A DNA stretch of 64,000 nucleotides from an uncultured Gammaproteobacteria bacterium (GCA_964620905.1 CAZUKA010000001.1:583646-647645); one strand, 5' to 3'; positions 43,290 through 63,890 are shown, numbered from the stretch's first letter. The notes: generated from the letters alone by a model not told the origin. Numbers and translations: made by a program.

Positions 43290-43298
43290 AATTATTTT

Positions 43299-43889: not shown

Positions 43890-43892
43890 TAA

Positions 43893-44714
43893 TTATTTTA
43901 TTAAATCTTTAAATCTCTTTTTTGATAAATCGAGGTATTTCTTTTCCATATCTATACCAACAAATTTTCTTTCGTTTAAAACAGCTGCGAGTCCAGTGGT
44001 AGAACTACCAGTAAAAGGATCAAGCACAACATCTCCTTTGTCTGTGCTGGCTAAAATAATACGCACTAAAAGATCGATTGGTTTTTGTGTAGGGTGTTTG
44101 CCAAACTTTTTTTCATCTTTTTTTGGCGGACGAATTGCCCACACACTGCGCATTTGCAAATCTGGTTTTTTTAAAAAATCTTCCTGCCACTTACCATGCT
44201 TCATCAATTTATAATTGAATTTGTGTTTAGCTTTTTTTTCTTTCCGGGCCCAGATAATTGTTTCGTGACTAGCAGTAAAAAAACGACAACTTAAATTTGG
44301 TGAAGCATTGGGTTTAAACCACGCTATGTCGTTTAAAATATGATAGCCCAATGCTTGAATGGCATGACCACATTGATAAATAGAATGATACGTTCCGCTT
44401 ACCCAAATTGTTCCGCCTGGTTTTAAAACCCTCTTACATGCTTCCAGCCATTTGAAATGAAATTCATAGTCACCATTAAAACCTTTACTTTTATCCCATT
44501 CACCTTTATTAACACTTACTCTCCTGCCAGCATGGACGGAAAAGCCACCATTGGAAAGATTGTATGGAGGATCAGCAAATATCATATCTATGGAATTACC
44601 TGGGAGTTGTTGTAAAAACTCCAAAGAATTCGCCTGATATAAAACAAAGTTATTTGTTTTAAAATAAGGCTTTTCCTTAACTGGCGCTAATATTTTTTTA
44701 TGCTTTTTAAACAT
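43893..44714 (-). CDS. beta-class amino-DNA methyltransferase (N6-adenine or N4-cytosine)
   Basis: 273 aa; motif IV IFADPPYNLS near N-terminus, motif I VLDPFTGSSTTGLAA near C-terminus (IV-TRD-I order). Confidence 0.8.
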   Translation of the reverse strand: MFKKHKKILAPVKEKPYFKTNNFVLYQANSLEFLQQLPGNSIDMIFADPPYNLSNGGFSVHAGRRVSVNKGEWDKSKGFNGDYEFHFKWLEACKRVLKPGGTIWVSGTYHSIYQCGHAIQALGYHILNDIAWFKPNASPNLSCRFFTASHETIIWARKEKKAKHKFNYKLMKHGKWQEDFLKKPDLQMRSVWAIRPPKKDEKKFGKHPTQKPIDLLVRIILASTDKGDVVLDPFTGSSTTGLAAVLNERKFVGIDMEKKYLDLSKKRFKDLIK

Positions 44715-44756
44715 AATTATTTATTGTATTATACTACTTTTTCCAATCTTTAATAA

Positions 44757-45524
44757 TTACTGACATGCGCCGGAGGAAGAAACGGTTATACCGGCAAGGG
44801 TTGCCTGACAAGAGTTACCATAAGTTTCTCCGTCACACCCGCACACTGGTGAATAAATCAATGCACAAGCTTGGGGTTTGGTTTTACACTCACCCACTTG
44901 GTTACACTGTCCTACTTCTTTGGCACAATATTCACTAGCTTCACAATCACTACTTGATTGGCAAGTATTTAGACACTGCCCGTTATATTCTACACTCACT
45001 CCCGCGGCTCTAGCTTGGCAAGAGTTGCCATAGGTTTTACCATCACAACCACACACCGGAGCATACTGCAAAGTACAAGCTTCAGATTTGGCTACACACT
45101 CACCACTACCACCACATTGACCGGTTTTGTATTCACAATAAAAATTGGTTTGGCAGTCAGTGTCAGTTTGGCAAATATTGCTTGGCGGTTCTTGGGCTGG
45201 TGGTTGATTGTTGGGTGCTTGATTGTCTTGATTGTTCTGTTGCGGTTGGTTGTCTGTTACCACTGGTTCATTGTTAAATACCGGCTCATTGGCAGGTGAA
45301 GGTTCATCGGTTATTACTACCTCACCTGTTTCAATTGTATCATCTACTACTATATCTTCTGTGGGAGTAAACTCTTCTGGTTCAACCACCTGCACTGTTT
45401 GCGTATCAGTTTGACTGGTAAAGTCAGAAACTTTTTTGTCGCCTGCTTGTTGCCACCACCAAATTGCAACTCCCAAAAGCAAGATAAGTAAAAGAACAAT
45501 TATAATATATATATTTTTGCGCAT
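44757..45524 (-). CDS. membrane-anchored secreted protein with Q/N/P-rich linker and two Kazal-like domains
   Basis: CTLQYAPVCGCDGKTYGNSCQARAAG...C and CALIYSPVCGCDGETYGNSCQATLAG...C match Kazal spacing (PVCG.DG.TY.N.C). Confidence 0.55.
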   Translation of the reverse strand: MRKNIYIIIVLLLILLLGVAIWWWQQAGDKKVSDFTSQTDTQTVQVVEPEEFTPTEDIVVDDTIETGEVVITDEPSPANEPVFNNEPVVTDNQPQQNNQDNQAPNNQPPAQEPPSNICQTDTDCQTNFYCEYKTGQCGGSGECVAKSEACTLQYAPVCGCDGKTYGNSCQARAAGVSVEYNGQCLNTCQSSSDCEASEYCAKEVGQCNQVGECKTKPQACALIYSPVCGCDGETYGNSCQATLAGITVSSSGACQ

Positions 45525-45702
45525 ATTTATTAGAATTAAAAATTAGATAAGGAATAATTTAAGATCTATGAATAAAGATTTAAGACAGTTTTATTTTTAG
45601 ATTCCTCATCCCCACTTCGCTAAAGCTACGAGGGGCAATGCAAGTGCGGAATGACAAACAAATTCAAGGATTATTTTATTTATTTCTATTTAAACTTAAA
45701 TT

Positions 45703-46749
45703 TTATTTAAAATAATTACCAACAGCATCTTCAAACTGCTCAATAAATATTTGTTTAAAATAAGAAATATTATTTATTTCATAAAATAATATAACGGCTT
45801 TTTTATACTCCTCAACATCCACTATTCTATAAGAAAGCGGAATAGAATTATGCGCCAACAAAATAGCATTGGAAATCATACGAGAAGTTCTTTTGTTGCC
45901 ATCTTCAAAAACTTGAATATAAGCGATAAGAATTGAGATTAAAAAAGCCTTTTCAAAAAATGATTCCTTCATATTGATTAGCTCAACCATATTTTGCAAT
46001 GCCTCTTTGATTTGTAGCTCATTATCCAAGGGTCTATATTTTGTGCCAGTAACTCCAACGCCTTCTTTCCTGATATTTTTAGAAATCCCAAGTTTTTTGG
46101 TTAAAACAGAATGGATATATTCAATATCAGCGCTGCGTAATTTAATAAAACGTTCTCTATTTTGAATAGCTTCATTGAAAGCGTCTTTGTGATTGAGAAT
46201 CATCTGAGTTTCTTCTTTAGTCTTACCTTTTCCGATGACATTATTTTTAATCAAAGCTTCCGTGCCTAAAAGCGAATAAGTATTCCCCTCAATGGCCGAT
46301 GACTTCCAAGAAAATTCAATCATTATCCGTTCAAACTCCTTATTAATGATTGTTTGACTGTCATATTTGGAAAAATTCTTAATAAATTCCCTTTGTAATT
46401 TTTCCAGTTTCTCTTTTTCTTCAGCTGAAAAAATATTATTACTCAAAATATTAAATATTTCAAAATTGAAACTTTCTTTTACTTCTCTTTTGAGATAAGG
46501 GACGGAAAAATATTTTTCAATATCTACTTCTTCTAAAATCTTAAAAGTTTTTGACAATAAATAAACAGTACTTTTGCCTGTACCTTTTTTAAAAACTAAA
46601 AATTTATCTTCCAATTCTTTTAAATCCCTTTGTAAAGTTTTTCTGTCAATATCTAAACGCAAAAAAGACAAAATCTCAACAAGTGACACCTCTGCCTTAT
46701 CTTTCATAAAAGCAGTTATTTTATTTTGTCTTATTTGTTTTTTATTCAT
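45703..46749 (-). CDS. Fic-family protein with N-terminal winged-HTH
   Basis: 348 aa; Fic motif VFEDGNKRTSR (HPFxDGNGR-like); N-terminal LVEILSFLRLDIDRKTLQRDLKELE wHTH-like. Confidence 0.7.
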   Translation of the reverse strand: MNKKQIRQNKITAFMKDKAEVSLVEILSFLRLDIDRKTLQRDLKELEDKFLVFKKGTGKSTVYLLSKTFKILEEVDIEKYFSVPYLKREVKESFNFEIFNILSNNIFSAEEKEKLEKLQREFIKNFSKYDSQTIINKEFERIMIEFSWKSSAIEGNTYSLLGTEALIKNNVIGKGKTKEETQMILNHKDAFNEAIQNRERFIKLRSADIEYIHSVLTKKLGISKNIRKEGVGVTGTKYRPLDNELQIKEALQNMVELINMKESFFEKAFLISILIAYIQVFEDGNKRTSRMISNAILLAHNSIPLSYRIVDVEEYKKAVILFYEINNISYFKQIFIEQFEDAVGNYFK

Positions 46750-46768
46750 ATTTAAACTATATCGCTTA

Positions 46769-46923: not shown

Positions 46924-48153
46924 TTATCTTACATTGCTAATGGAATTTTTGACAGTATCGTGTTTGGTTTTCATGATATCGCTCACCAGTTGAATAGTGT
47001 GAGCCATTTGTGCCCAAGGGGAAAGATCAATCCATTCTTTGTAACTATCATCACTTTCGCCTTCTACTCCGCCAATTTCCAAAATAGCCGGGCCACCTTG
47101 ATTTGAACTATCATCACCCATAAAATCTATTTCATCTGGCTCAATTCCGGTTTGTTCTAACTTTTCCCCTTCTTCTACTTTCCAGTTGTATCCCACATTG
47201 CCCTTTTTCTTACCTTCAGCTACACCTTGTTGAACAGTATGTGTTAATTCATTGGCTGACAGTCCTTTGCGTAGTAAAAAGGCATACCAAGGAAACTTAA
47301 CTTTTACTTGTCCTGTTTCCCAATTATCACTTTTATTTACTGCAACTTCGGCTCGATAATTTGTGGGAATAAAACCAAACAATTTGGCTGGCAATTTGTA
47401 CTCAAATTTAATTTCTTCATAGTTTAAACTCAAAGTTTCTGTTGGTACATCATCGGCCAGCATGGCACCTAAGGCGAAATTCTGCAGATCCTGTTCGCTT
47501 TGTACTTGCGCCCAAGTTTTGACAGTGGTTAAAAAAATTTGTTTTTGTTCGGTAGTTAAACCTTTGACATCACCCACGGCTATCCGCACACCACCAGCTG
47601 GCCAACCATCTCTAGGACCAGCACTAACCAACCTATCATTGCTAGCTGACTCATTATCAGTTGTTTCACCTTTGATGTCATCAATTTCTATAAATACTGG
47701 TACTAACTTGGTGCCTTCTTCTACTTTCCAACTGACCTCTACTTTACCTTTTTGCCTACCAGCTGCTTCTTCATCGTCATCACTATTTCCTTCAAGTAAC
47801 ACACCAAAATTTGTTGTCTGTTCATTTTCACCCATAAAGTCTATTTCATCTGGCTCAACACCAGTTTGTTCTAACTTTTCTCCTTCTTCTACTTTCCAGT
47901 TGTATTCTACATTACCTTTTTTCCCACTGTCAGTGGTGGTGCCTTGGGTACTATTGGGAACACTACCAGTGATTACTGGTTGGTCTGGATCACCCTCACT
48001 AGAACTATCAGCTGGACTAGCTACAAAATCCAAATCAGTCTCCTGATACTGTAAAATATTTACCGAAGTATCAGGTGCTCTTTGCACTTGAGCTGCGCCT
48101 AAAACTGGAGCAGCTAAAAAAACTAGACTTAAAATATATATAAAAACGTTCAT
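46924..48153 (-). CDS. secreted protein with three ~35-aa internal repeats
   Basis: Signal peptide; repeats KKGNVEYNWKVEEGEKLEQTG.EPDEIDFMG / QKGKVEVSWKVEEGTKL... / KKGNVGYNWKVEEGEKLEQTGIEPDEIDFMG. Confidence 0.35.
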   Translation of the reverse strand: MNVFIYILSLVFLAAPVLGAAQVQRAPDTSVNILQYQETDLDFVASPADSSSEGDPDQPVITGSVPNSTQGTTTDSGKKGNVEYNWKVEEGEKLEQTGVEPDEIDFMGENEQTTNFGVLLEGNSDDDEEAAGRQKGKVEVSWKVEEGTKLVPVFIEIDDIKGETTDNESASNDRLVSAGPRDGWPAGGVRIAVGDVKGLTTEQKQIFLTTVKTWAQVQSEQDLQNFALGAMLADDVPTETLSLNYEEIKFEYKLPAKLFGFIPTNYRAEVAVNKSDNWETGQVKVKFPWYAFLLRKGLSANELTHTVQQGVAEGKKKGNVGYNWKVEEGEKLEQTGIEPDEIDFMGDDSSNQGGPAILEIGGVEGESDDSYKEWIDLSPWAQMAHTIQLVSDIMKTKHDTVKNSISNVR

Positions 48154-52793: not shown

Positions 52794-52905
52794 ACGTTTT
52801 TTACCAAAAAACGCCCCAGCAATAAAAGTGGGGTGTTTTTTATTTAGTTAACTTGGATAAAACTGCCAATTTTTGTTATAATAAAATCGAACTTTAAACT
52901 TTTTC

Positions 52906-53790
52906 ATGGCCAAAAAATTCAATCATCCGATCAGAAAAGTAGTCATTCCCGTAGCTGGCTTGGGAACCAGATTTTTGCCAGCCACCAAAGCAATACCTAA
53001 AGAGATGTTGCCGATTTTGGATAAACCGATTTTGCAATATGTGGTCGAGGAAGCAGTGGCCTCTGGGATTACCGATATAATTTTTGTTACTTCTTATACC
53101 AAACGCGCCTGCGAAGATCATTTTGATCGCACGCCCGAACTGGAAGAAACATTGAAAAACAACCCGGCCAAAAAAGACCTATACGAAAAAATCAAACAGA
53201 TCTCCCAGCAAGCCAACTTTATCTATATCAGGCAAAAAGGACCTTACGGCAATGGCACCCCGATTTTAAACGCCAAACCAATCGTCGGTAATGAACCTTT
53301 CGCCATGCTGTGGGGAGACGAGGTGTTTGACTGCCCGACTAAACCTAGACTGTTGCAACTGATTGAAGTGTTTCAAAAATACGGCGATCCAGTGACTACT
53401 GGCTATCAAGTACCTCGTAGTGATGCAGCTAAATACGGAATGCTCAAAGGTGTCAAAGTAGAACCAACTGTTTACCAAGTAGAAAAAATAGTGGAAAAAC
53501 CAGGACCAAAAAATACTCCTTCACTGATTGCCAATTTGGGTGGTTATGTACTAACTCCTGACATTTTTCCAATTTTAGAAAAAACTAAACTAGGCAAAGG
53601 CAATGAACTGTGGCTAGTTGATGCGGTTGATGCCTTGGGTAAAACCCGAGCCATTTATTCCAAAATTGTCGACGGGGTGTATTATGATACTGGCAACAAG
53701 TTGACTTGGTTGAAAGCCAATATTGCTTTTGGTCTTAAAGATAAAGAGACCAAAAACGAATTGAAAAAATATTTACGAAAATTGATTTAA
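52906..53790 (+). CDS. galU: UTP--glucose-1-phosphate uridylyltransferase
   Basis: VIPVAGLGTRFLPATKAIPKEMLPILDKPILQYVVEEA N-terminal signature. Confidence 0.85.
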   Translation: MAKKFNHPIRKVVIPVAGLGTRFLPATKAIPKEMLPILDKPILQYVVEEAVASGITDIIFVTSYTKRACEDHFDRTPELEETLKNNPAKKDLYEKIKQISQQANFIYIRQKGPYGNGTPILNAKPIVGNEPFAMLWGDEVFDCPTKPRLLQLIEVFQKYGDPVTTGYQVPRSDAAKYGMLKGVKVEPTVYQVEKIVEKPGPKNTPSLIANLGGYVLTPDIFPILEKTKLGKGNELWLVDAVDALGKTRAIYSKIVDGVYYDTGNKLTWLKANIAFGLKDKETKNELKKYLRKLI

Positions 53791-53799: not shown

Positions 53800-55206
53800 A
53801 TGAACCAGCTTAACAAAATAAAACTTATTGGTCTGACAATTGTTATGCTGTCTTTGCCGCTACTTGGCATCGGGTGTAAAGGTGGAGATTTGGAAGCACA
53901 AAAAGCGGCCAAACCAATTACTTTGAAAATTTGGGGGGTATGGGATGAACAAGATTTATTGCAAGATATTTTCACTGAATACAAAAAAACTAGGCCCAAT
54001 GTCAGCTTTGAATACCGCAAACTTCGGATCGAAGAGTATGAGCGAGCTTTACTGGAAGCTTGGGCCGAAAACCGGGGTCCTGATATTTTTATGGTACACA
54101 ATACTTGGGTGACCTCCTACCTGACAAAACTGGAACCATTGCCTAGCAGTTTGTCTTTACCCGTACAAACCGTCAAAGGTAGCCTAAAAAAAGAAGTGGT
54201 TTGGGAACTAAAAAGCTTCCCTACTCTGACTGTAAACCAAGTAGATGAAAAATTCGTCAAAGTAGTCAAAGACGATATTATCAGAAACAATCAAATTTAT
54301 GGACTACCTCTAGGACTTGATACTTTGGCGCTTTATTACAATAAAACTATATTCAACAACGCCGGAATTGCCACTCCACCTACCACCTGGGCCGAATTTA
54401 AACAAGCGGTTCTAGCGATCACTCAACTTGATCCTGATAACAAAATCATCCGCAGCGCTGTAGCGATGGGACGTGGTGACAATGTTGAACGCGGCACAGA
54501 TTTACTGTCAGTGTTGATGATGCAAAACGGCGCTCAAATGTTGGGGGTAGATAATTTACCTGCCTTTGATAAAATTCCTCAGGGTGGCAGTCAAAATTAT
54601 CATCCCGGTGAACAAGCTTTAATTTTTTACACTGATTTTGCTAACCCCATCAAAGAAGTCTACACTTGGAATCAAACCTTGCCCAATTCGGTTGATGCGT
54701 TTGCTCAAGGACTAACCGCCATGATGTTTGGCTACTCTTATCACGCACCGTTGATTCGTGCTCGTGGACCGAGAGTAGATTTTGGTATCACCGCTTTGCC
54801 CCAAATTGATCCGTTGGCCAAAAAATACAACTTTGCCAATTATTGGTTGTTGGGAGTTTCTCCCCGCGGGGAAAAACAAAGCAAAGCCACTGCCTGGGAT
54901 TTTATTTTGTTTGCCACCACCAAACCAGGCCCGAATGAAAAATATCTGACCAAAGCAAACAAAGCTCCTGCACTAAAAGAGTTGATTGCCAAACAGCAAA
55001 ATAATCCTGACACTTCGATCTTTACCCAACAAGCTCTAACTGCCGAAAGTTGGTACCGAGGGTACAATCCCACTGCCGCAGAAGAAATAGTCAAACAGTT
55101 GATTGCCGCAGTCAATCAAGGAAATTTTTCTAGTCTGAGCGCCCTGATGCGCAACAGTGTCGAACAACTAAAACAAACTTATCTTAGACCATCATATGCC
55201 AATTAA
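53800..55206 (+). CDS. extracellular solute-binding lipoprotein (ABC SBP family 1-like)
   Basis: Lipobox GIGC; 468 aa; sugar-SBP-like features. Confidence 0.5.
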   Translation: MNQLNKIKLIGLTIVMLSLPLLGIGCKGGDLEAQKAAKPITLKIWGVWDEQDLLQDIFTEYKKTRPNVSFEYRKLRIEEYERALLEAWAENRGPDIFMVHNTWVTSYLTKLEPLPSSLSLPVQTVKGSLKKEVVWELKSFPTLTVNQVDEKFVKVVKDDIIRNNQIYGLPLGLDTLALYYNKTIFNNAGIATPPTTWAEFKQAVLAITQLDPDNKIIRSAVAMGRGDNVERGTDLLSVLMMQNGAQMLGVDNLPAFDKIPQGGSQNYHPGEQALIFYTDFANPIKEVYTWNQTLPNSVDAFAQGLTAMMFGYSYHAPLIRARGPRVDFGITALPQIDPLAKKYNFANYWLLGVSPRGEKQSKATAWDFILFATTKPGPNEKYLTKANKAPALKELIAKQQNNPDTSIFTQQALTAESWYRGYNPTAAEEIVKQLIAAVNQGNFSSLSALMRNSVEQLKQTYLRPSYAN

Positions 55207-55834
55207 AAAAATTTATTTTATCTTGCTGATTTTATTTTTTTTGTTTGTACCCTGGCTGACCCATGCCCAAACCTCGGGTTTTATCCCCTCGGACTGTCTG
55301 TCTGGTGGGGCGGAAAAGTGTGATTTGGTTGATTTGGTACAATTGTTTGCCAATTTTTATCTATTTTTAGTCAAATATGTGGGCGCGTTGGCTTTGCTTT
55401 TATTTGTGATTGGTGGGGTAGTTTTTATCACTGCCGGTGGCAATCAAGAACGAATCACCCGCGGTCGGCATATCTTGATTGGTACTTTGATTGGCCTGTT
55501 TATCGTTATGACTAGCTATATTATTGTTCTGCAAATTCAAAAATTTATTGGCGTGAGCGGTGAATATCAACTCCAATCATCACAAAACAATCAAACTGAA
55601 TGCGTGGGTAAAAATGATGGTATTTCTTGCCGCGGACCAGCGGGTAACGTTTATGTTTGTATCAATCAAATTTGTCAAAACGGACAAGGTGCAGGTATAA
55701 AAACTTTTTGCGAATATAACCGAAGTGGTACTTGTATTGATAATTGCAGTACCACCAACTGCCAAAATGGAACTTGTCAGCCTGGTTTCTGTGATGGTGG
55801 TGACACTAGACTTTGTTGTGTACCCAATCCGTAA
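55196..55834 (+). CDS. VirB2/TrbC-like two-TM pilin-like protein with Cys-rich C-terminal extension (paralog 1)
   Basis: Signal peptide; TM1-FITAGGNQE-loop-TM2 core; C-terminal 80 aa with 17 Cys. Confidence 0.45.
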   Translation: MPIKKIYFILLILFFLFVPWLTHAQTSGFIPSDCLSGGAEKCDLVDLVQLFANFYLFLVKYVGALALLLFVIGGVVFITAGGNQERITRGRHILIGTLIGLFIVMTSYIIVLQIQKFIGVSGEYQLQSSQNNQTECVGKNDGISCRGPAGNVYVCINQICQNGQGAGIKTFCEYNRSGTCIDNCSTTNCQNGTCQPGFCDGGDTRLCCVPNP

Positions 55835-55855
55835 AGCTAAAAGTGCAAAAATCAT

Positions 55856-55884
55856 TTTACAAAATAATTAATATATGTTATAAT
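55856..55884 (+). promoter_or_regulatory. sigma70-like promoter TTTACA-17-TATAAT
   Basis: Consensus hexamers and spacing upstream of pilin-like gene 55953. Confidence 0.4.
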
Positions 55885-55885
55885 A

Positions 55886-55917
55886 CAATTACCTTATAAA
55901 AAATTATAAGGTAATTG
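55886..55917. promoter_or_regulatory. 14-bp perfect palindrome CAATTACCTTATAA-AAAA-TTATAAGGTAATTG overlapping predicted TSS, between promoter and RBS
   Basis: seen in sequence. Confidence 0.4.
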
Positions 55918-55952
55918 ATTTAAAATCATAATTTTAGAAAGGGGGTGACATT

Positions 55953-56315
55953 ATGAAAAAACAAATTTTATCCCTTGGTATTTTGTCACTTTTATTAGTC
56001 CCAATGGCAGCCGCTGCTGACACTTTTGGTACTGGTTATGGCAGCCTCATCGGCCTGGGAACACAAGATGTACGTGAAACTATTGCTCGGATTATCAACG
56101 TAGTTTTGGGAATTTTGGGTATCGTCGTTACTTTAATTATTATCGCGGGTGGTTTCCGTTGGATGACTGCCGGTGGTAACGAAGAAGCGGTTGGACAAGC
56201 TAAAAAAATTATCAGCGCTGGCGTAATTGGTTTATTGATTATCATCATCGCTTACGCGCTTTCTACTTGGATCTTCAGCGTGATTATTGGTGCAACAACT
56301 GAAGCAACAGCATAG
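55953..56315 (+). CDS. VirB2/TrbC-like pilin-like protein (paralog 2)
   Basis: Signal peptide, GILGIVVTLIIIAGGFRWMTAGGNEEAVGQAKKII...IGLLIIIIAYALSTW. Confidence 0.5.
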   Translation: MKKQILSLGILSLLLVPMAAAADTFGTGYGSLIGLGTQDVRETIARIINVVLGILGIVVTLIIIAGGFRWMTAGGNEEAVGQAKKIISAGVIGLLIIIIAYALSTWIFSVIIGATTEATA

Positions 56316-56334
56316 TAATGAATAATACTTTTGA

Positions 56335-57000
56335 ATGAATTTTTATTTTATCAAAATAAAAAATCTTTCAGTCCACATCACGGTGGCTATCATTTTGATA
56401 GCCACCGTGTTAGTTGGTGGCCAATTGGCCTGGGCAGCGGAAAATTCCACTCCCCAAGCAAATGAGGTCACTATCTTTTCCCTAGCTAAAAGTGAGGCAG
56501 TTTCCAATTTAGACAAAGCTGCTAATCTTAGTGGCTTAAAAAGTGAAGGTACACTAGGCACCAAAGTTGGTACGATCATCAATGGGGTCTTGAGTTTTAT
56601 TGGCGTGGTACTGCTGGTTCTTTTCATCTATGGCGGCTGGACCTGGATGACCGCTGGTGGCAATGAAGAAAAAGTCAGGCAAGCCAATAAAATTTTGGCT
56701 AGTGCCATCATTGGATTTGTTTTGATATTTATGTCTTACGCACTGACTAATTTTTGGGCTAAACAATTTTTCCCAGTTTATACTCAACCTCCAGGGATTG
56801 ATGGTGGCGGAGGACTTATTGAACCTGATCCCTTAGGGGATATTGGTGCTTGTATCACTTTAACCAGTCCTCCTTCCAATCAAGCCAGTTGTAGCAATTC
56901 GGTCTTGCAGGAAAATTGTTTGACACCAAAAATCTTTTATATCAATTTTACTTGCGATCAACTGTGTACTGGTATTAACCCACCTTATAATTGTCAATAA
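56335..57000 (+). CDS. VirB2/TrbC-like pilin-like protein with Gly/Cys-rich C-terminal extension (paralog 3)
   Basis: IYGGWTWMTAGGNEEKVRQANKIL core; C-term PPGIDGGGGLIEPD... with 8 Cys. Confidence 0.45.
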   Translation: MNFYFIKIKNLSVHITVAIILIATVLVGGQLAWAAENSTPQANEVTIFSLAKSEAVSNLDKAANLSGLKSEGTLGTKVGTIINGVLSFIGVVLLVLFIYGGWTWMTAGGNEEKVRQANKILASAIIGFVLIFMSYALTNFWAKQFFPVYTQPPGIDGGGGLIEPDPLGDIGACITLTSPPSNQASCSNSVLQENCLTPKIFYINFTCDQLCTGINPPYNCQ

Positions 57001-57384
57001 ATGTTAAATTATAAACAAAAAATATTTTCTACCTTTCTCAAAAACATTGTACTCGTGACATTTATTCTTTGGCCCCAACTATCATCAGCTGTGTCACCTG
57101 GCAGTATGCTAAAAGACGCTGGCGATGCTAGCAAACTTGCTAATCCCTCTTTACCTGAAGTGATTGGCAGTGTAATCAATGCTGCTTTGGGAATACTAGG
57201 AACTATTTTTTTGGTGCTGATAATTTATGCGGGCTTTACTTGGATGACCGCCGGTGGCAATGAAGAGAAAATTCAAAAAGCCCAAAAAATTATTCGCAAC
57301 TCAACTATTGGCCTATTGATCGTGGCTTTGGCTTTTGCTATCACCCAATTTGTCTTTAAGACTTTGATTGAAGCAGGATTATAA
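57001..57384 (+). CDS. VirB2/TrbC-like pilin-like protein (paralog 4)
   Basis: IYAGFTWMTAGGNEEKIQKAQKII core. Confidence 0.5.
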   Translation: MLNYKQKIFSTFLKNIVLVTFILWPQLSSAVSPGSMLKDAGDASKLANPSLPEVIGSVINAALGILGTIFLVLIIYAGFTWMTAGGNEEKIQKAQKIIRNSTIGLLIVALAFAITQFVFKTLIEAGL

Positions 57385-57775
57385 TATGAAAAAAATAAAA
57401 AATACACTACTAATTTTCTTTTTATCCTTGGCAACTATTCCCACTTTGGCTCAAGCTAGTATTTTGCAAGATGCTCTGTCCACTGCTGAAGTAACCAATC
57501 AAAAAGCCAAACTAGCAGAAACTGCCAATCCAGCCTTTTTGACCGGAGAAATAATAAAATATGCCCTAGGCTTTGTAGGTACAATTTTTCTAGTACTTAT
57601 CATCTACGGTGGTTTTTTGTGGATGACCGCAGCTGGCAATGACCAACAAATCGACAAAGCTAAAAAAATTCTGACCAATTCTACTGTGGGTTTATTAATA
57701 GTCGTATTGGCCTATGCTTTGTCTTTGTTTATTATCAATGTGATTCTCAAAGCCACCAGCGGCGAGCCGATTTAA
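57368..57775 (+). CDS. VirB2/TrbC-like pilin-like protein (paralog 5)
   Basis: IYGGFLWMTAAGNDQQIDKAKKIL core. Confidence 0.5.
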   Translation: MKQDYNMKKIKNTLLIFFLSLATIPTLAQASILQDALSTAEVTNQKAKLAETANPAFLTGEIIKYALGFVGTIFLVLIIYGGFLWMTAAGNDQQIDKAKKILTNSTVGLLIVVLAYALSLFIINVILKATSGEPI

Positions 57776-57779
57776 TTAT

Positions 57780-58193
57780 ATGAACAAAAAAACTATCAAA
57801 ATACTACTGGTAATAATGATTTGGAGTGGTTTTTTCTTTTCTGCCACAACTCCCCTACTAGCAACCAGCACTGATGCGGGCACAAAAATAAAACAAGGTA
57901 TAATCGACACTGGTATAGCAGCTGAACTGGGCAATGCTGATACAGATATAAGAGAAACTACTGCCTTGATCATCAGATACTTACTTGGTTTTTTAGGAAT
58001 TTTATTCACCATCCTAATAATCTACGGTGGTTTTTTGTGGATGACCGCAGCTGGCAATGACCAACAAATTGATAAAGCCAGAAAAATTTTAACCCAAGCA
58101 GCGATTGGACTATTGATTGTCGTTTTGGCCTATGCTTTATCTAGTTGGATATTTAAAATAATCCTCAGAGCTACTTACGATCCGTGGGCTTGA
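57780..58193 (+). CDS. VirB2/TrbC-like pilin-like protein (paralog 6)
   Basis: IYGGFLWMTAAGNDQQIDKARKIL core, near-identical to paralog 5 in the TM hairpin. Confidence 0.5.
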   Translation: MNKKTIKILLVIMIWSGFFFSATTPLLATSTDAGTKIKQGIIDTGIAAELGNADTDIRETTALIIRYLLGFLGILFTILIIYGGFLWMTAAGNDQQIDKARKILTQAAIGLLIVVLAYALSSWIFKIILRATYDPWA

Positions 58194-58210: not shown

Positions 58211-58242
58211 AAAAAGCGGAAATTTTATTTCCGCTTTTTTTG
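58211..58242. terminator. hairpin AGCGGAAAT-TTT-ATTTCCGCT + T7 (bidirectional)
   Basis: Perfect 9-bp stem. Confidence 0.6.
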
Positions 58243-58754: not shown

Positions 58755-60584
58755 ATGAATAAATTTAGCCAAACTTTAGAAAAAAAATACACACTCCTTA
58801 TCGGCTTAATCGCTTATATACTAATCCTCACTGCTGTTTGCTGGTATAAATATTTTGTATTTGGTTACAATGCCTTGGATTTGGCAATCTACAATAATGT
58901 TTTTTTCAATGCCATAAATAACAATGGCTGGTGGTCAAGTATTCAAGGGCATCACTATTTTGCTGATCACTTTGAACCCTGGCTGTATTTTTTTCTGCCA
59001 CTGTATTGGCTGTGGCCATCACCACTCAATTTACTGCTTTGGCAAAGCACTATCTTAGCTTGTATCTCAATACCGATATACCTAATTGCCAAACATATTT
59101 TCAATCAAAAATTGGCTATTGCTGTGGCCTTAGTCTGGCTAATAAATCCTTTGGCTTGGAATATAAATTTGCATGAATGGCACTTGTTGCCACTGGCAAT
59201 TCCTTTATTGCTTGGCGCATATTATTTTTATTTGCAAAATCAATTTAAATACTATTTAATCTTTTTGGCTTTGGCGCTGCTAGTTAGAGAGGACGTGGCT
59301 ATTGCTGTGGGCGGATTTTTTTTGCTGGGACTAATAGAAAAAAAATCTTTACGTTGGTGGCTGACACCACTACTTTTGAGTACAACATATTTTTTACTTA
59401 GCAATATTATAATAGGTTATTTCCAGGCTGGCGGTTCACGTTTTAGTGTATATTATGAATGGTTGCTGTCGGCAAAAGTTACTGATCTTATCTGGCATAT
59501 TTACTCCTTTGGTAATGTGGAAATGATTCTGGGACTGCTTATTGCTTTTTTGTTTTTACCACTGCTGGCTAGCAGATATCTGTTTTTGGCTGTGGGGGTA
59601 TTTTTACAGTTTGTTTTGGGTGAACCAGGTGGTAGTAATATTATCATTGATACACACTATTCGTCTTTATTTTTGCCAGCACTAATCATTAGTTCTTTAT
59701 GGGGTTTGAAAAATATCCAAAGTAAAAATAGTACTTTATCTAAGTGGTTGTATTTTGATACCAGTTTAACCAAGCTGATAACTGGGGTATGTCTTGTCTA
59801 TTTACTACTTTTTTTGGGTCCAGGTTGGGGAATTATAAAAAACATTTATCAGCCAAGCAATGATCATTGGCCCAATCGTTTACTCCATGATATTCCTCCC
59901 GGTGCTACTGTTGCGGCTGGTTATAAATATTTACCAAAACTTGCTGGTCGAGAAAAATTATATTCTTTGCATTATATTTTTACTGGCCACCAACAATTTT
60001 CCTCCGAAGTTTATAAATATGAACAGCCTGATTTTATAGTCATGGATCCTGATGATATGATTTATTATGCTTTACAATTTCCCAAATCAAAATCTTATCA
60101 TCAGTACTACCCCGAGGGCTATGACAATCTAAAAAAACTATTAGCAAACTACGAACTAAAATATTTTCACCCACAACTGCTATTTTGGCAAAAAAACCAA
60201 ACTCCAACCACTCTGGAATATGTCGCCACTTTTTCACCAATTAACCGTGAACCGCAAGAGTTGGATAAATTTATTTTGACTAGCGAAATAAAAAATGATT
60301 TGCTAGCCATCAGCTGGCAAATCAATTCAACAACTTCGGATGATTATTTTTTGCTAGCAAATTATGAAGATAATAGTTCGTATCTGCGGCCACTTTTATA
60401 TTTTACTCCCACTCAAGTCTGGCAAACGGAAAATTTCTATCAGACTTACCTGCCATTACTCCCAGGGCAAAATAGCAGTCTCCAAATCGTCACACTTCAA
60501 GGTCATATTGAAATCAACAACTGGCGCGGCACCAAGGCCAATATCACTATCCAACCGCAAAGTGACTTGATAAATTTGCCCTAA
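58755..60584 (+). CDS. large polytopic membrane protein, DUF2079-like (putative GT-C glycosyltransferase)
   Basis: 609 aa; N-terminal GYNALDLAIYNNVFFN and ADHFEPWLYF motifs, ~12 TM then soluble C-domain. Confidence 0.4.
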   Translation: MNKFSQTLEKKYTLLIGLIAYILILTAVCWYKYFVFGYNALDLAIYNNVFFNAINNNGWWSSIQGHHYFADHFEPWLYFFLPLYWLWPSPLNLLLWQSTILACISIPIYLIAKHIFNQKLAIAVALVWLINPLAWNINLHEWHLLPLAIPLLLGAYYFYLQNQFKYYLIFLALALLVREDVAIAVGGFFLLGLIEKKSLRWWLTPLLLSTTYFLLSNIIIGYFQAGGSRFSVYYEWLLSAKVTDLIWHIYSFGNVEMILGLLIAFLFLPLLASRYLFLAVGVFLQFVLGEPGGSNIIIDTHYSSLFLPALIISSLWGLKNIQSKNSTLSKWLYFDTSLTKLITGVCLVYLLLFLGPGWGIIKNIYQPSNDHWPNRLLHDIPPGATVAAGYKYLPKLAGREKLYSLHYIFTGHQQFSSEVYKYEQPDFIVMDPDDMIYYALQFPKSKSYHQYYPEGYDNLKKLLANYELKYFHPQLLFWQKNQTPTTLEYVATFSPINREPQELDKFILTSEIKNDLLAISWQINSTTSDDYFLLANYEDNSSYLRPLLYFTPTQVWQTENFYQTYLPLLPGQNSSLQIVTLQGHIEINNWRGTKANITIQPQSDLINLP

Positions 60585-62254
60585 GGCAAAACTTCATAAA
60601 TTGTTGCCTGGCCACTGACAAAAACCGGACGGAGATAATTTTTTTCTTGAGGAAGATATTTACCTAAAATTGACTCGTAAGGCGAATAAATTACATAATC
60701 AATCCCAGCTTTTTTTAGAAAAGCATGTTTGCTTTCGTCTAAATTTTTATCATTGGCAGCGTAAAACCAATTGACTAGACTAATTTTTGCATAATAAAAA
60801 AGAGTCTCATGGGCATGAGCAGCATAAACCAGTTGACCAGAGTAACTCGGTGTAAATTTGGAAGGAATATCAGCTGCCAAAACAATGCTGGCTGGTGATT
60901 TTTGTGCCAACCATTTATATCCATTTACCAAACCCTGATCTAAATAAAATATTTGGTTGGTAGCTGGTGGCCGAACAATATAATAATACATATCCCTCAC
61001 CAAATGAAAAATATTTGACATTGTAAACAACAAAACAAACAAAATCCCAAACAGAAAATTATTGGTTACAAGTGATTTCAAAAAAACTCTAGTTGATAAT
61101 TTCTGATATAACAATACTAGAGCATCAACAGTAAAAAAGACTAAAACAAAATGCAAACCTTGGGTATACCGACTACTAAATGGTGTGGGTAAAATCATTA
61201 GAGATAAAATCAACAATAACCACAAAAACATATAAATATAAATTTCTTTCATCTGTTTTTTATAAAACCGATAACCCAAGCTGTAAAGTGACCCTAGACA
61301 CAAAAAACCATAACCCAACAAAACATAAGGCCAAGGCGCTAACGGTGTAACATTTTGCAAAGCTCGTTGATAAATAACCAAATCAGCTCCAATCAACCAA
61401 ATGTGATAAATGGCCATCGGTAAAGAAAGACCAAAAAAAAGTATGAGCCAACCAACACGTCGCCAAGAAATTTTTTGCTGTTTAAAAGTCAAATAAAAAA
61501 AATAAATAATTGCCAAGCCATAAATCACTGGCAAATAATAAGGGTGAAAATTAAAATAAACCAAACTCAATAAACCAGCCAACCAAGCATAGCCCCAACG
61601 CAAAGAGTTTAACCCCAAATAAATAAACAAAGTGGTGCCAAGCATCATTAGTAAAGAAAGAATAAAGTGAGACGAGTGATAAAGTGCTGTAAAAGTGATA
61701 GCTTCGGTTATCCATAAATCAATCGGCCAACTTAGTTCCCCTCGCTGGGGGAATAATTCTAAAATTGGCGCCAAATAAGCACCAACACCGGAAGAAAAAA
61801 GTAAAAAAATTAAAGCCCAGCGCCGTTGCCGATAACTGGAAAACAAATAGCTAATAAACACATAGGCTACACCTACAAAAATCGGAATGAGAAACAAGCG
61901 GCCAATTTGGAAAATAAAAATCCAAGAAACTTTGAGCCAATGTGCCCCTAATCCCATGATTGTCCACCAAATATTGAAAACACCATACACCTGGCTTTCA
62001 GTTGTAAATAAATTTTTCAACCAAATATTTCCTGTCATTACTTGCCGGATGTAGGAATAATAAATCGGCACATCACCAGGGCTTAAAGCATGTAACCCAT
62101 TGTAAAGAGTTCCTGGTGGCGTCAACAAATAACCCAAAAAATAAGGAAAGCCAGTCAAACAAATCATAGCGAAACTAATCCACCAAACAAATTTCCATTC
62201 CTTAAAATTTATAGAAGTTTTAACTGTAAATTTGTCATCGCTTGTCATAAGCAA
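60581..62254 (-). CDS. GT-C-fold (ArnT/PMT/YfhO-like) membrane glycosyltransferase-like protein
   Basis: 557 aa; first loop SPGDVPIYYSYIRQ (D-x3-Y), many TM, soluble C-terminal domain; paralog of next gene. Confidence 0.35.
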   Translation of the reverse strand: MLMTSDDKFTVKTSINFKEWKFVWWISFAMICLTGFPYFLGYLLTPPGTLYNGLHALSPGDVPIYYSYIRQVMTGNIWLKNLFTTESQVYGVFNIWWTIMGLGAHWLKVSWIFIFQIGRLFLIPIFVGVAYVFISYLFSSYRQRRWALIFLLFSSGVGAYLAPILELFPQRGELSWPIDLWITEAITFTALYHSSHFILSLLMMLGTTLFIYLGLNSLRWGYAWLAGLLSLVYFNFHPYYLPVIYGLAIIYFFYLTFKQQKISWRRVGWLILFFGLSLPMAIYHIWLIGADLVIYQRALQNVTPLAPWPYVLLGYGFLCLGSLYSLGYRFYKKQMKEIYIYMFLWLLLILSLMILPTPFSSRYTQGLHFVLVFFTVDALVLLYQKLSTRVFLKSLVTNNFLFGILFVLLFTMSNIFHLVRDMYYYIVRPPATNQIFYLDQGLVNGYKWLAQKSPASIVLAADIPSKFTPSYSGQLVYAAHAHETLFYYAKISLVNWFYAANDKNLDESKHAFLKKAGIDYVIYSPYESILGKYLPQEKNYLRPVFVSGQATIYEVLP

Positions 62255-63890
62255 GATTTACCTGATAGATAACATAATCACCGCTGATAAAAACTGGTTG
62301 TAAATATTCTTTCGTTTGAGGTTGAAATATATTCATCTCAGGTGTTTGTTCATAAAAGATAATATAGTTGATACCAGTTTGTTGCAAAAATTCTTGTTTT
62401 TTTTCATCATGTAAATTGTTTTGAAAAAACCATTTCATTTCCATATATTTACTATGTACATACACAGTTTCAACCAGATGCCCAATATACTGACGTCGAC
62501 TGATCAAAGCTGGGGCGGTGCGAAAAAACAAATCATAGTTGGTAAAAATTATTTCATCAGCACGAGTATTTTTTTCCAACCAAGCGGCGATTTGTTTAAA
62601 TTCTTGGGGATAATAAAAAAAATAATTACTTTGGTATTTGATATAGAAATAATTCAATCCTAGAAAATTGAGATTGCTAATAAACAAAATTAGAGCCAGG
62701 GGCAACCAAACAAACCAACGCTTGATTGACCAATCTTTTATTTGGTTTTTTGCTAGATTATCAAGTTGAGCAATAAAAAAACCAACCATAATAGCCAAAG
62801 GAAACCACCAACCTTCGGCCAAGCGTCTTTGCCACAAAAAAGGCAAATAGATAAGGATGGTATTTAGTAGCGCCCAAATAACCAAAAAATTAAAATTAGG
62901 CAAATAATGATTTTTTCTTTTTGACCAAAAAAAACTTAAAATTGCTAATATAACTGCTGTACCAAAACTTAAAAAAGTAATAAACGGCTTAGGTGAAGGC
63001 AAAAAATTTTGATTGGTCTTAATACTAGTCACCCAATCTGCCTGATACAAATAAAAATAATAGCCAATACTTGGTAAAGTTGCCAAAAATATCAGGGCCA
63101 ACTGCCAGGTGCCTGACCAAAAAAAAGTTTTCTTTTGATAAGTCATAAACAACCAATAAGCTCCCAAAACAAACAAAATGGTCGGGGCGTGGAAAGGATG
63201 CAATAGTATCAGAATCGCTCCTACTATTGCCGCCGTTAAAGTATAAACATAGTTATTATGACGCAGTGCTAAAAAACCAAACACTAGGGTAATAAGCAGT
63301 AATAACCAAGATAAAATAAAATGCGGAGAGATCACCATGCTAGTAAAAGGAAAAGCATCGGGAATAAAAACATCAAAGGGAACATTGTGCCAGGCATTGT
63401 CAAACCAAAAAAAGGGTTTAGCTAAAACATATAGCCACCCTAAACCAGCTCCTAAACTAAAAATCAACAGCGAAATCAACCGATCTTTTTTTTCTCGTAA
63501 AAAATAACTGATCAACCAATAAACAAAAAAAATAAAAATTGGTATCAATACTGTCCGAGCTAGATGAAAAATTGTCTGTGGGATTAATGAAAATATTTTG
63601 GCAATTTTCCCTAGTCCTGTCCAAAAGGGATGCAAAACAGCTAAGGTACTTTCGCTAGTATAAAAATTTTTCACTAACCAACCATCTTCTATCCCCTGCC
63701 TGATATAAGAATAATAAACTGTGTTATCGCCAGGATTGATAAAAGTGGAAGCATTATAAACAAATCCCCTCGGAACATGTTGGGATAAATAATAATAAGG
63801 CCACCAGGTCAAAATTATTAGTATCAAAGAGATTATAGCCAACGACAACCACTCGCCTTTAGTCCAATTTTTTAATATTTCCCGTAACAT
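62235..63890 (-). CDS. GT-C-fold membrane glycosyltransferase-like protein (paralog)
   Basis: 551 aa; NPGDNTVYYSYIRQG...FYTSES shared with 60581..62254; 20-nt overlap between the two. Confidence 0.35.
   Translation of the reverse strand: MLREILKNWTKGEWLSLAIISLILIILTWWPYYYLSQHVPRGFVYNASTFINPGDNTVYYSYIRQGIEDGWLVKNFYTSESTLAVLHPFWTGLGKIAKIFSLIPQTIFHLARTVLIPIFIFFVYWLISYFLREKKDRLISLLIFSLGAGLGWLYVLAKPFFWFDNAWHNVPFDVFIPDAFPFTSMVISPHFILSWLLLLITLVFGFLALRHNNYVYTLTAAIVGAILILLHPFHAPTILFVLGAYWLFMTYQKKTFFWSGTWQLALIFLATLPSIGYYFYLYQADWVTSIKTNQNFLPSPKPFITFLSFGTAVILAILSFFWSKRKNHYLPNFNFLVIWALLNTILIYLPFLWQRRLAEGWWFPLAIMVGFFIAQLDNLAKNQIKDWSIKRWFVWLPLALILFISNLNFLGLNYFYIKYQSNYFFYYPQEFKQIAAWLEKNTRADEIIFTNYDLFFRTAPALISRRQYIGHLVETVYVHSKYMEMKWFFQNNLHDEKKQEFLQQTGINYIIFYEQTPEMNIFQPQTKEYLQPVFISGDYVIYQVNLAYDKR

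What the first reader, a model, noticed from the sequence alone, without database searches (positions are those of the whole stretch)
55196..58193. Tandem array of six paralogous two-TM VirB2/TrbC-like pilin-like genes, two with Cys-rich C-terminal extensions
Six consecutive plus-strand ORFs (120-221 aa) each have a signal peptide, a ~40-aa variable segment and a conserved hydrophobic hairpin: TM1, then a WMTAGGNEE/WMTAAGNDQ + KxKKI loop, then TM2. This is the topology of T4SS VirB2/TrbC pilins, down to the WM after TM1. The variable region before the hairpin differs between copies while the hairpin is conserved, including two nearly identical copies (paralogs 5 and 6), suggesting diversification of the exposed part. 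Paralogs 1 and 3 carry 80-100-aa C-terminal tails with 8-17 cysteines (possible tip/adhesin modules). The array follows galU and a solute-binding lipoprotein and precedes three GT-C-like membrane proteins. No VirB4/VirB6/VirD4 genes are in the window.
Basis: partly seen in the sequence, partly recalled or inferred. Interest (0 to 1): 0.65.

Follow-up and report, generated by a model that had tools for sequence, protein, structure and literature searches.

The report
VirB2-like pilin gene array, Patescibacteria
Six neighbouring genes encode small membrane-hairpin proteins of the known "type IV secretion pilin" family, a gene array already described in the ultrasmall Patescibacteria; the only new point is that the first gene is a separate subtype always paired with a sugar-binding lipoprotein.

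Summary
Six consecutive + strand genes (55196-58193) each encode a signal peptide, a variable segment and a conserved two-helix hairpin. All six score above Pfam's gathering threshold for PF18895 (T4SS_pilin), the VirB2/TrbC-like family of Patescibacteria.

Such arrays are already published: 441 arrays of 2-11 pilins in 383 assemblies, and six essential pilins in the T4SS locus of Ca. Southlakia epibionticum. This is a new member of a known kind.

- The tails hold 12 (p1) and 6 (p3) cysteines.
- Paralogs 5 and 6 are 61% identical overall and share only a 50-nt exact patch.
- Gene 1 lacks the WM motif.

New details:
- The locus is two transcription units, galU-SBP-p1 and p2-p6.
- p1 belongs to a distinct pilin clade that directly follows an orphan sugar-type solute-binding lipoprotein in 43 of 48 loci, and in 5 of 5 SBP-centred look-ups.
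- p2 is nearly invariant between species, so it is the likely major subunit. The cysteine-rich tails evolve fastest.

No VirB4, VirB6 or coupling protein lies in the window or within 10 kb of 80 related arrays. Four related genomes are listed as VirB4-positive. Pilus assembly by a distant T4SS is therefore inferred, not shown.

The parts
52854..52882 (+). promoter-like site (TGGATA-17-TATAAT with TG) ahead of galU; proposed start of unit 1 (galU-SBP-p1)
   Evidence: consensus scan only
52906..53790 (+). galU-like UTP-glucose-1-phosphate uridylyltransferase (context; same unit as SBP and p1)
   Evidence: Pfam NTP_transferase on L001. TIGR01099 galU 296.8 bits, best match but below the 326.8 cut-off. 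Found upstream of the SBP in 29 of 67 array loci.
53800..55206 (+). orphan sugar-type solute-binding lipoprotein (SBP_bac_1/SBP_bac_8); its stop overlaps the p1 start by 11 nt
   Evidence: N-terminus LLGIGC. Conserved partner of the p1-type pilin. No ABC permease or ATPase cluster among neighbours.
55196..55834 (+). p1: SBP-coupled pilin-like protein. Two conserved Cys before TM1 (C34, C42), loop FITAGGNQER, and a 90-aa C-terminal tail with 12 Cys ending in CCxP.
   Evidence: PF18895 28.8 bits. Distinct clade: 39/43 against 4/452. Signature features. Alignment A4. Tail 28-57% identical to orthologues.
55856..55884 (+). promoter-like site TTTACA-17-TATAAT with extended TG; start of unit 2 (p2-p6)
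   Evidence: conserved in L003 and L021
55890..55913 (+). 5' UTR stem-loop (10 bp), followed by a strong Shine-Dalgarno AGAAAGGGGGTGA
   Evidence: z -2.3. A hairpin of different sequence sits at the same place in L003, weaker in L021. The SD is conserved.
55953..56315 (+). p2: 120-aa pilin, proposed major subunit
   Evidence: PF18895 37.6 bits, TrbC 19.6 bits. Hairpin 73/74 identical and variable part 87% identical to orthologues in two other species. Its 90%-identity cluster spans 7 members on several genomes.
56335..57000 (+). p3: 221-aa pilin with a long N-terminal variable part and a 72-aa C-terminal tail with 6 Cys
   Evidence: PF18895 33.8 bits; tail 26-28% identical to orthologues
57001..57384 (+). 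p4: 127-aa pilin; its start codon abuts the p3 stop
   Evidence: PF18895 40.4 bits; NF045849 40.2 bits. AF2 helical hairpin, pLDDT 80.6.
57386..57775 (+). p5: 129-aa pilin (the ATG start is preferred over TTG 57368)
   Evidence: PF18895 31.7 bits; gene call on L001
57780..58193 (+). p6: 137-aa pilin
   Evidence: PF18895 34.8 bits
57602..57651 (+). 50-nt stretch identical to 58020-58069 in p6 (encodes IYGGFLWMTAAGNDQQI); a substrate for recombination or conversion
   Evidence: Logan contigs break here. A p5/p6 chimera occurs in L005.
58211..58239 (.). 13-bp hairpin flanked by an A-run and a U-run: bidirectional intrinsic terminator that closes the array and the convergent lipoprotein gene
   Evidence: -15.7 kcal/mol, z -4.4
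58755..60584 (+). DUF2079 polytopic membrane protein (context)
   Evidence: PF09852 146.6 bits; same position in L003, L021 and Kerfeldbacteria
60581..63890 (-). two paralogous polytopic membrane proteins (557 and 551 aa, about 30% identical) with no family assignment (context)
   Evidence: In L003 they are followed by a GT2 gene that would lie just beyond the window end.

Best explanation
This is a chromosomal, vertically inherited locus of a Paceibacter-like Patescibacterium. It encodes six paralogous PF18895 (VirB2/TrbC-like) pilin proteins in two transcription units.

SHOWN:
- Each gene encodes an N-terminal hydrophobic, signal-peptide-like segment (weakest in p4), a variable segment, and two hydrophobic helices joined by a short charged loop (TAGGNEEKxxKAKK).
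- Unit 2 (p2-p6) has its own conserved promoter, strong ribosome-binding site and terminator.
- Unit 1 couples p1 translationally to an orphan sugar-type solute-binding lipoprotein downstream of galU.
- p1 belongs to a separate, old clade of SBP-coupled pilins.

INFERRED, by analogy with F-pilin TraA and VirB2 (established knowledge):
- The propilins are inserted through Sec and cleaved by signal peptidase I.
- They rest in the membrane as hairpins with both ends outside and the basic loop in the cytoplasm.
- The VirB4-powered monoderm-type T4SS, encoded elsewhere in the genome, extracts them and polymerises them into a pilus used for contact with, or transfer to or from, the host cell.
- p2 is the major subunit: it has the best expression signals and a 99% conserved hairpin.
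- p3-p6 are alternative or minor subunits with different exposed N-terminal faces.
- The cysteine-rich C-terminal tails of p1 and p3 are extracellular, disulfide-bonded, fast-evolving display modules.
- p1 with its SBP may form a sugar-recognising accessory of the same structure.
For: - Family membership: all six above the PF18895 cut-off. 33 of 33 relatives hit PF18895 and 4 of 33 also TrbC. Homologues are named 'pilin' or 'type IV secretion system pilin' and come from Parcubacteria, Magasanikbacteria and Kerfeldbacteria.
- Structure: confident helical hairpin.
- Family size: 86,772 cluster representatives at E<=0.001.
- Published precedent: 441 arrays of 2-11 pilins in 383 assemblies; six essential pilins in the Ca. 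S. epibionticum T4SS locus; the array in TM7x.
- Stable inheritance: 1:1 orthologues of all six genes in the same order in two other species.
- Operon signals.
- p2 conservation.
- C-terminal extensions on the hairpin are a general theme, from 70-aa Cys-rich tails to giant proteins over 3,400 aa. This fits an outward-facing C-terminus.
- Four genomes carrying the same SBP-linked array type (SG8_24, Uhrbacteria RIFCSPHIGHO2_02_FULL_57_19, HGW-Falkowbacteria-1, Gr01-1014_13) are listed 'Presence of VirB4: Yes' in Table S1 of PMC12102498.
Against: - No VirB4, VirB6, VirB3 or coupling protein in the 64-kb window.
- No VirB4 or T4CP candidate emerged within 10 kb of any of 80 related loci: the neighbour clusters that were annotated with Pfam, and all Walker-A ORFs of 450-1100 aa, were housekeeping proteins.
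- The T4SS of the source genome itself could not be examined.
- TrbC/VirB2 similarity is below threshold.
- Foldseek against solved structures found no conjugative pilin (best E 0.55), and a profile search of PDB sequences found nothing.
- No pilus of this family has been visualised to my knowledge.
- The neighbours are envelope and glycosylation genes, not secretion genes.
Confidence: 0.6

Rival explanations
1. T4SS-independent envelope module. The PF18895 hairpin is a membrane anchor or oligomerising scaffold that displays variable ectodomains on the cell surface. It works with the sugar-binding SBP lipoprotein, and perhaps is glycosylated by the linked GalU / polyprenyl-phosphate GT2 / GT-C-type enzymes. 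It is not polymerised by VirB4.
For: - No VirB4 or T4CP candidate emerged within 10 kb of 80 related arrays.
- An SBP lies immediately upstream in 45 of 67 arrays, and 43 of 48 SBP genes are followed by a pilin gene, mostly at -11 to +20 nt. SBP-centred look-ups gave 5 of 5.
- L092 has the SBP-pilin pair with no array nearby.
- Frequent neighbours are GT2 (33 loci; best matches are ArnC, PgfS and AglJ, all lipid-carrier-charging enzymes), an MptA_B/GT87-type GT-C, DUF2079, Lgt, a PBP and YidC.
- The hairpin also anchors giant proteins.
Against: - The same neighbourhoods also contain plain housekeeping genes (dnaA, dnaN, nusA, H+-PPase, trigger factor). Conserved order in these small genomes is therefore weak evidence of shared function.
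- Pilin arrays of the same family lie inside the essential T4SS locus in Saccharibacteria.
- 1,135 of 1,948 assemblies have a pilin gene near virB4.
- Nothing here shows glycosylation.
Confidence: 0.25
2. Antigenic or phase-variation cassette system. One expressed pilin gene is changed by recombination with neighbouring donor copies, as with Neisseria pilE/pilS or Anaplasma.
For: - p5 and p6 share a 50-nt exact patch including synonymous sites, inside otherwise diverged genes.
- In a relative, a contig carries an exact p5-N/p6-C chimera in place of the two genes.
- Array size varies from 4 to 12 between lineages.
Against: - All six genes are complete, with their own start codons and signal peptides.
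- They have 1:1 orthologues in the same order in three species.
- Each paralog's variable part is conserved between species.
- The chimera may be a de Bruijn assembly artefact: other contigs simply break at this repeat.
- No silent partial copies were found.
Confidence: 0.07
3. Pilins of a mobile conjugative element (ICE or plasmid) integrated here, or type IV (T4P) / Flp-Tad pilins.
For: NCBIfam NF045849 (Mycoplasma ICE 'Mbov_0395 pilin-like conjugal transfer protein') is the best NCBIfam match; p4 just reaches its cut-off (40.2 against 40).
Against: - No integrase, relaxase, VirB4 or T4CP nearby.
- GC content is like the flanks.
- The locus is syntenic across species and classes.
- No N_methyl, Flp or TadE hit at E<=1, and the N-termini end in AxA-like sequences (e.g. 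AAA/D in p2) rather than a G/FxxxE prepilin motif.
Confidence: 0.03

Closest known systems
VirB2-like pilin arrays of Patescibacteria (Quinonero-Coronel et al. 2025, PMC12102498; the six essential pilins of the Ca. Southlakia epibionticum ML1 T4SS locus, Wang et al. 2023, PMC10633639; the signal-peptide protein array of TM7x, bioRxiv 10.1101/258137)
   Same: Same Pfam family (PF18895). Tandem array of six genes. Signal peptide plus hairpin. Low identity between copies (29-61% here; the paper reports a mean of 25% and a maximum of 54%). Chromosomal, with no relaxase.
   Different: - This array is not next to virB4 or other T4SS genes.
- It follows galU and an orphan sugar-type SBP and precedes DUF2079-type membrane proteins.
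- Its first gene is a separate SBP-coupled subtype with conserved cysteines.
- Two members carry Cys-rich tails.
- The lineage is Paceibacter-like, with relatives in ABY1, rather than Saccharimonadia or Microgenomatia, where the paper found arrays most abundant.
TrbC/VirB2/TraA conjugative pilins of diderm T4SS (Pfam PF04956; T-pilus, F-pilus)
   Same: Long signal peptide, about 70-100-aa mature protein, two hydrophobic helices with a short basic loop. Weak profile similarity (p2 E 0.0011; relatives down to 1.3e-5).
   Different: Below the family's gathering score. No adjacent VirB operon. Monoderm host. No evidence of cyclisation or of a lipid-bound filament. Six paralogs rather than one gene.
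Tandem virB2 paralogs of Bartonella and Anaplasma phagocytophilum T4SS (as cited in PMC12102498)
   Same: Several diverged VirB2 copies in tandem, thought to vary the exposed surface.
   Different: Those sit in or beside the virB locus of intracellular pathogens of animals. Here the paralogs are stable orthologous sets conserved between species.
Mycoplasma ICE pilin-like protein (NCBIfam NF045849, Mbov_0395 family)
   Same: Best NCBIfam match for five of the six (27.8-40.2 bits; no match for p1). Monoderm host with a small genome.
   Different: Only p4 reaches the cut-off. There is no ICE context.

Membership tests
Pfam PF18895 T4SS_pilin | HMM score at or above the gathering threshold (26.6 bits) | tested here: met
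   p1 28.8, p2 37.6, p3 33.8, p4 40.4, p5 31.7, p6 34.8 bits. 33 of 33 aligned relatives also match.
Pfam PF18895 T4SS_pilin | Architecture: cleavable N-terminal signal sequence, then two hydrophobic helices joined by a short polar loop | tested here: met
   Hydropathy segments. AF2 helices 51-83 and 88-126 with pLDDT above 90. The signal peptide of p4 is weak.
Patescibacteria VirB2-like pilin array (PMC12102498) | Two or more PF18895/PF04956 genes in tandem, or separated by one gene, in a Patescibacteria genome, with low identity between copies | tested here: met
   Six genes in 3 kb, 29-61% pairwise identity. Closest genomes are Patescibacteria; L021 is Ca. Paceibacter sp., with GalU 91% and SBP 83% identical.
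Patescibacteria VirB2-like pilin array (PMC12102498) | A VirB4-type T4SS present in the same genome | not testable with these tools
   None in the window. The probable source contig (716,806 bp) could not be fetched. Four related genomes with the same array type are VirB4-positive in Table S1 of the paper.
TrbC/VirB2 pilin (Pfam PF04956) | HMM score at or above the gathering threshold (27.9 bits) | tested here: not met
   Only p2 matches, at 19.6 bits (E 0.0011). 4 of 33 relatives match at E<=0.01.
TrbC/VirB2 pilin (Pfam PF04956) | Encoded with the mating-pair-formation genes (VirB3/4/6...) | tested here: not met
   Absent from the window and from +/-10 kb of 80 related loci.
TrbC/VirB2 pilin (Pfam PF04956) | Fold matching solved conjugative pilins | tested here: inconclusive
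TrbC/VirB2 pilin (Pfam PF04956) | Polymerises into an extracellular pilus | not testable with these tools
   Needs microscopy or proteomics.
Type IV pilins / Flp-Tad pilins | Class III signal peptide (G/FxxxE, N_methyl PF07963) or the Flp motif (PF04964) | tested here: not met
   No such Pfam hit at E<=1. The N-termini are Sec-type, ending in AxA-like sequences such as AAA/D in p2.
NCBIfam NF045849 Mbov_0395 ICE pilin-like conjugal transfer protein | Score at or above the cut-off (40 bits), plus an ICE context | tested here: not met
   p4 40.2 bits; p2, p3, p5, p6 27.8-34.6; p1 none. No ICE genes, and the locus is syntenic across species.

The most novel reading that the evidence does not exclude
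The sugar-type solute-binding lipoprotein and the p1-type pilin form a widely conserved, apparently undescribed two-gene cassette of Patescibacteria. It keeps translational coupling, has its own pilin clade with a conserved Cys pair and often a Cys-rich ectodomain, and persists even where no array is nearby. It may act as the host-glycan recognition or priming element of the pilin-based surface structure. That structure might be modified by the linked GalU / GT2 / GT-C enzymes, and might work independently of the T4SS.
Probability: 0.3. Interest if true: 0.6.

Novelty: new member of a known kind. Interest (0 to 1): 0.35.

Why it matters
Patescibacteria make up a large share of bacterial diversity and live attached to host cells. 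Their T4SS and its pilin array are essential in the one genetically tractable species, yet their function is unknown.

This locus adds nothing categorically new. It does show three things:
- The arrays are stable orthologous gene sets.
- One copy (p2) is under very strong constraint, while the tailed copies evolve fast.
- One pilin subtype is tightly coupled to a sugar-binding lipoprotein across classes.

If that coupling reflects function, it gives a concrete candidate for how these epibionts recognise host surface glycans, and a testable pair for structure prediction and genetics.

Tried and rejected
2. A profile search of PDB sequences with the pilin alignment found nothing meaningful.
3. 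AF2 of p1 with 14 sequences gave pLDDT 57.9, and about 50-60 in the tail. That is too poor for a fold search, so the fold of the Cys-rich tail stays unknown.
4. I looked for VirB4 or T4CP among all Walker-A ORFs of 450-1100 aa in 80 related loci. They were FtsK, FtsH, Mg-chelatase-like, DnaA, IF-2, SMC and EngA. The neighbour clusters I annotated (the ten most frequent by Pfam, others by reading their sequences) were GT2, Lgt, MFS, PPDK, HisRS, a PBP, a methyltransferase, an HTH_25 protein, NusA, H+-PPase, trigger factor, SmpB, IF-3, DnaN and YidC.
5. I tried to retrieve the source genome through the 100%-identical SBP (P0128, contig of 716,806 bp). Only short Logan contigs were returned, and no names were attached.
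6. DUF2079 and the two 550-aa membrane proteins have no PDB sequence relatives, no NCBIfam hit and no similarity to each other. No paper mentions DUF2079. 'GT-C-like' therefore stays a guess for the two unassigned proteins.
7. At 26-61% identity between paralogs and 50-90% between orthologues, synonymous sites are saturated. Segment identities were used instead.
8. The ICE/plasmid and T4P/Flp readings were rejected (see rivals).
9. The 5' UTR hairpin has only modest support (z about -2.3 in two of three genomes).

Full report
**What is there.** Between 55196 and 58193 the + strand carries six consecutive ORFs of 120-221 aa.
- Each begins with a hydrophobic N-terminal segment. Two long hydrophobic segments follow, flanking a short polar loop.
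- In p2-p6 the loop reads WMTAGGNEE or WMTAAGNDQ followed by K/R-rich residues. In p1 it reads FITAGGNQERITRGRHI.
- The shared core is visible at DNA level as direct-repeat families of 39-80 nt in all six genes.
- p5 most likely starts at ATG 57386, as gene callers chose on contig L001.
- Cysteines: p1 has 14 (12 in a 90-aa tail, 2 before the first helix), p3 has 6 in a 72-aa tail, and the other four have none.
- Pairwise identity is 29-61%. p5 and p6 are the closest pair at 61% overall and 70% in the hairpin. They share one exact 50-nt patch (57602-57651 = 58020-58069).
- Among p2-p6 the 30 residues before the hairpin average 29% identity and the hairpin 49%.

**Family.** All six proteins match Pfam PF18895 (T4SS_pilin) above its gathering score, at 28.8-40.4 bits against 26.6.
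- p2 also matches TrbC/VirB2 (PF04956) below threshold. No Flp, TadE or N_methyl family appears.
- In NCBIfam the best match for five of the six (none for p1) is the Mycoplasma ICE pilin-like family NF045849. Only p4 reaches its cut-off.
- Of 33 aligned relatives, 33 match PF18895 and 4 match TrbC.
- AlphaFold2 predicts a confident helical hairpin for p4.
- Foldseek against PDB and a profile search of PDB sequences were uninformative, which is unsurprising for a two-helix fold.
- The family is very large: 86,772 representatives of 50%-identity clusters at E<=0.001.

**Organism and context.** The window is ordinary chromosome of a Patescibacterium, carrying uvrB, polA, gyrA, the S1 protein gene and tRNA genes.
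- The nearest species representative is Ca. Paceibacter sp. (L021), with GalU 91% and SBP 83% identical.
- No ORF in the window is a VirB4, VirB6 or VirD4 homologue.
- Upstream lie a short-chain dehydrogenase, galU and a solute-binding lipoprotein. The closest solved relatives of the lipoprotein are sugar-binding proteins.
- Downstream lie a small lipoprotein gene (- strand), a DUF2079 membrane protein and two unassigned polytopic paralogs.

**Operon structure.**
- The SBP stop overlaps the p1 start by 11 nt.
- A good promoter-like site (TTTACA-17-TATAAT with TG) and a strong Shine-Dalgarno lie in the 118-nt gap before p2. Both are conserved in two other species.
- p3 and p4 abut, and p4-p6 are 1-4 nt apart.
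- A 13-bp hairpin with a U-run follows p6.

The locus is therefore galU-SBP-p1 plus p2-p6.

**What is known.** Tandem arrays of VirB2-like pilins in Patescibacteria are published.
- 441 arrays of 2-11 genes were found in 383 assemblies, with mean identity 25%. A pilin gene lies near virB4 in only 1,135 of 1,948 assemblies.
- The T4SS locus of Ca. Southlakia epibionticum holds six divergent, essential pilins.
- TM7x has a comparable array of 4-6 signal-peptide proteins.

**Comparative analysis.** A scan of one genome per species with the motif WMTA[GA]GN[ED] returned 80 loci.
- 67 of them hold arrays of 4-12 pilin genes. In the other 13 the complete pilin module is the N-terminus of giant proteins.
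- An SBP orthologue lies directly upstream in 45 of 67 arrays, and galU in 29 of 67.
- 43 of 48 SBP genes are followed by a pilin gene, mostly at -11 to +20 nt.
- These SBP-adjacent pilins form their own clade. For 39 of 43 the best hit in another locus is another SBP-adjacent pilin, against 4 of 452 for the rest.
- They never have the WM dipeptide, which 77% of the others have. 75% have two or more cysteines before the first helix, against 5% of the others. 56% have at least 4 cysteines in all, against 15% of the others.
- Sampling from the SBP side gave the same answer. All five SBP orthologues looked up are followed by a PF18895 gene, one of them with no array nearby.
- Other frequent neighbours are a small GT2, whose best NCBIfam matches are polyprenyl-phosphate sugar transferases (ArnC, PgfS, AglJ), and large polytopic proteins, one of which matches the MptA_B/GT87 GT-C family.
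- A caution applies. The same neighbourhoods also hold dnaA, dnaN, a PBP, YidC, NusA and H+-PPase. Conserved order in these small genomes is only weak evidence of shared function.
- No VirB4 or coupling protein was found within 10 kb of any of the 80 loci.
- Four of those genomes appear in Table S1 of PMC12102498, and all four are listed as VirB4-positive.

**Evolution of the array.** The six genes have 1:1 orthologues in the same order in L003 and L021. Identity to those orthologues is as follows:

| Protein | Whole protein (BLASTP) | Hairpin | Variable segment | Tail |
|---|---|---|---|---|
| GalU | 91-95% | | | |
| SBP | 83% | | | |
| p1 | 51-63% | 69-73% | 73% | 28-57% |
| p2 | 91% | 99% (73/74) | 87% | |
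| p3 | 48-50% | 70-73% | 53% | 26-28% |
| p4 | 74-75% | 81% | 40% | |
| p5 | 75-76% | 89-91% | 63-73% | |
| p6 | 79-86% | 82-85% | 87-90% | |

- p2's 90%-identity cluster spans several genomes.
- The paralogs are thus old and individually conserved, not rapidly switching variants.
- The p5/p6 patch is kept in the relative too. One short-read contig carries an exact p5-N/p6-C chimera, and other contigs break at this point. This is either real unequal recombination or an assembly artefact.

**Mechanism.**
- Shown: family membership, topology elements, operon layout, SBP coupling and conservation pattern.
- Inferred, by analogy with TraA and VirB2: Sec insertion and signal-peptide cleavage; a hairpin with both ends outside and the basic loop inside; extraction and polymerisation by the monoderm-type T4SS encoded elsewhere. 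In this model p2 is the major subunit, p3-p6 are alternative or minor subunits, and the Cys-rich tails of p1 and p3 are extracellular display modules.
- The main rival (probability about 0.25) is that the SBP-linked proteins form a T4SS-independent surface module, possibly glycosylated by the linked enzymes.

**Verdict.** The SBP-p1 cassette is the only part that seems undescribed in the papers I could search. Interest 0.35.

Noticed in passing
window 34000-46750, - strand: Low-GC (25-29%) defence island. It holds a PbeA helicase (40419-42524; PADLOC 721 bits), a PbeC/DndD-like ATPase (38311-40239; 273 bits), a Cas4-like PD-(D/E)XK nuclease (42543-43289), a type II REase (43299-43889) with an N6/N4 methyltransferase (43893-44714), DUF3800 (35122-35745), a NERD protein (35747-36514), a DEDDh exonuclease (37158-37874) and a SoFic-like Fic protein (45703-46749). 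No DndCDE-type modification genes were seen next to the Pbe genes.
   Followed up: partly
window 44757-45524, - strand: 255-aa protein with two Kazal-type serine protease inhibitor domains (Pfam E 2.4e-10), unusual in bacteria. It sits at the edge of the defence island.
   Followed up: no
L011 7880-20389; L017, L036, L049, L043, L080, L054, L061, L018, L026, L070: In 13 of 80 related loci the whole pilin module (signal peptide, variable part, hairpin) forms the N-terminus of giant proteins. In 11 of these it occurs as an adjacent pair of about 700-1000 aa and 1,200 to over 3,460 aa. The representative search also found pilin-headed proteins of 2,200-4,000 aa, and proteins with 2-17 pilin modules in one chain.
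   Followed up: partly
L005 5643-6029 compared with L003 10333-11137: In a short-read contig of a close relative, the p5 and p6 orthologues are replaced by one gene that is an exact chimera: p5 N-terminal part and p6 C-terminal part, joined in the identical WMTAAGNDQQ patch. Other contigs of the same and of the window's strain end at that repeat. Real recombination or assembly artefact is undecided.
   Followed up: partly
L089 7851-11840; L090 7774-13102; L012, L028, L062: In many ABY1-type genomes the SBP-pilin pair is followed by a conserved block before the main array. The block is an HTH_25 + Glucodextran_B protein (RodZ-like), a methyltransferase, a 127-aa protein, then on the other strand a GT2 and one or two large polytopic proteins (one of them MptA_B/GT87-like). 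None of these genes is present in the window.
   Followed up: partly
window 55886-55917; L003 about 8967-8988: The 5' UTR of the p2 operon has a perfect 10-14-bp palindrome right after the -10 box. The relative L003 has a different palindrome at the same place, so hairpin potential is kept while the sequence changed. It could be an mRNA-stabilising stem-loop or an operator.
   Followed up: partly
window 46924-48153, - strand: 409-aa protein with no family assignment except a faint, sub-threshold match to the C-terminal end of T6SS Hcp (E 4.7e-4, 18 profile positions); probably meaningless.
   Followed up: no
window 7100-7649 and 9931-10005: Cluster of four tRNA genes (Gly-TCC, Pro-TGG, Phe-GAA, Ile-GAT) on the - strand. 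The listed ORF 6131-7129 (DNA polymerase III delta) overlaps tRNA-Gly by 30 nt, so its true start is probably further downstream.
   Followed up: no
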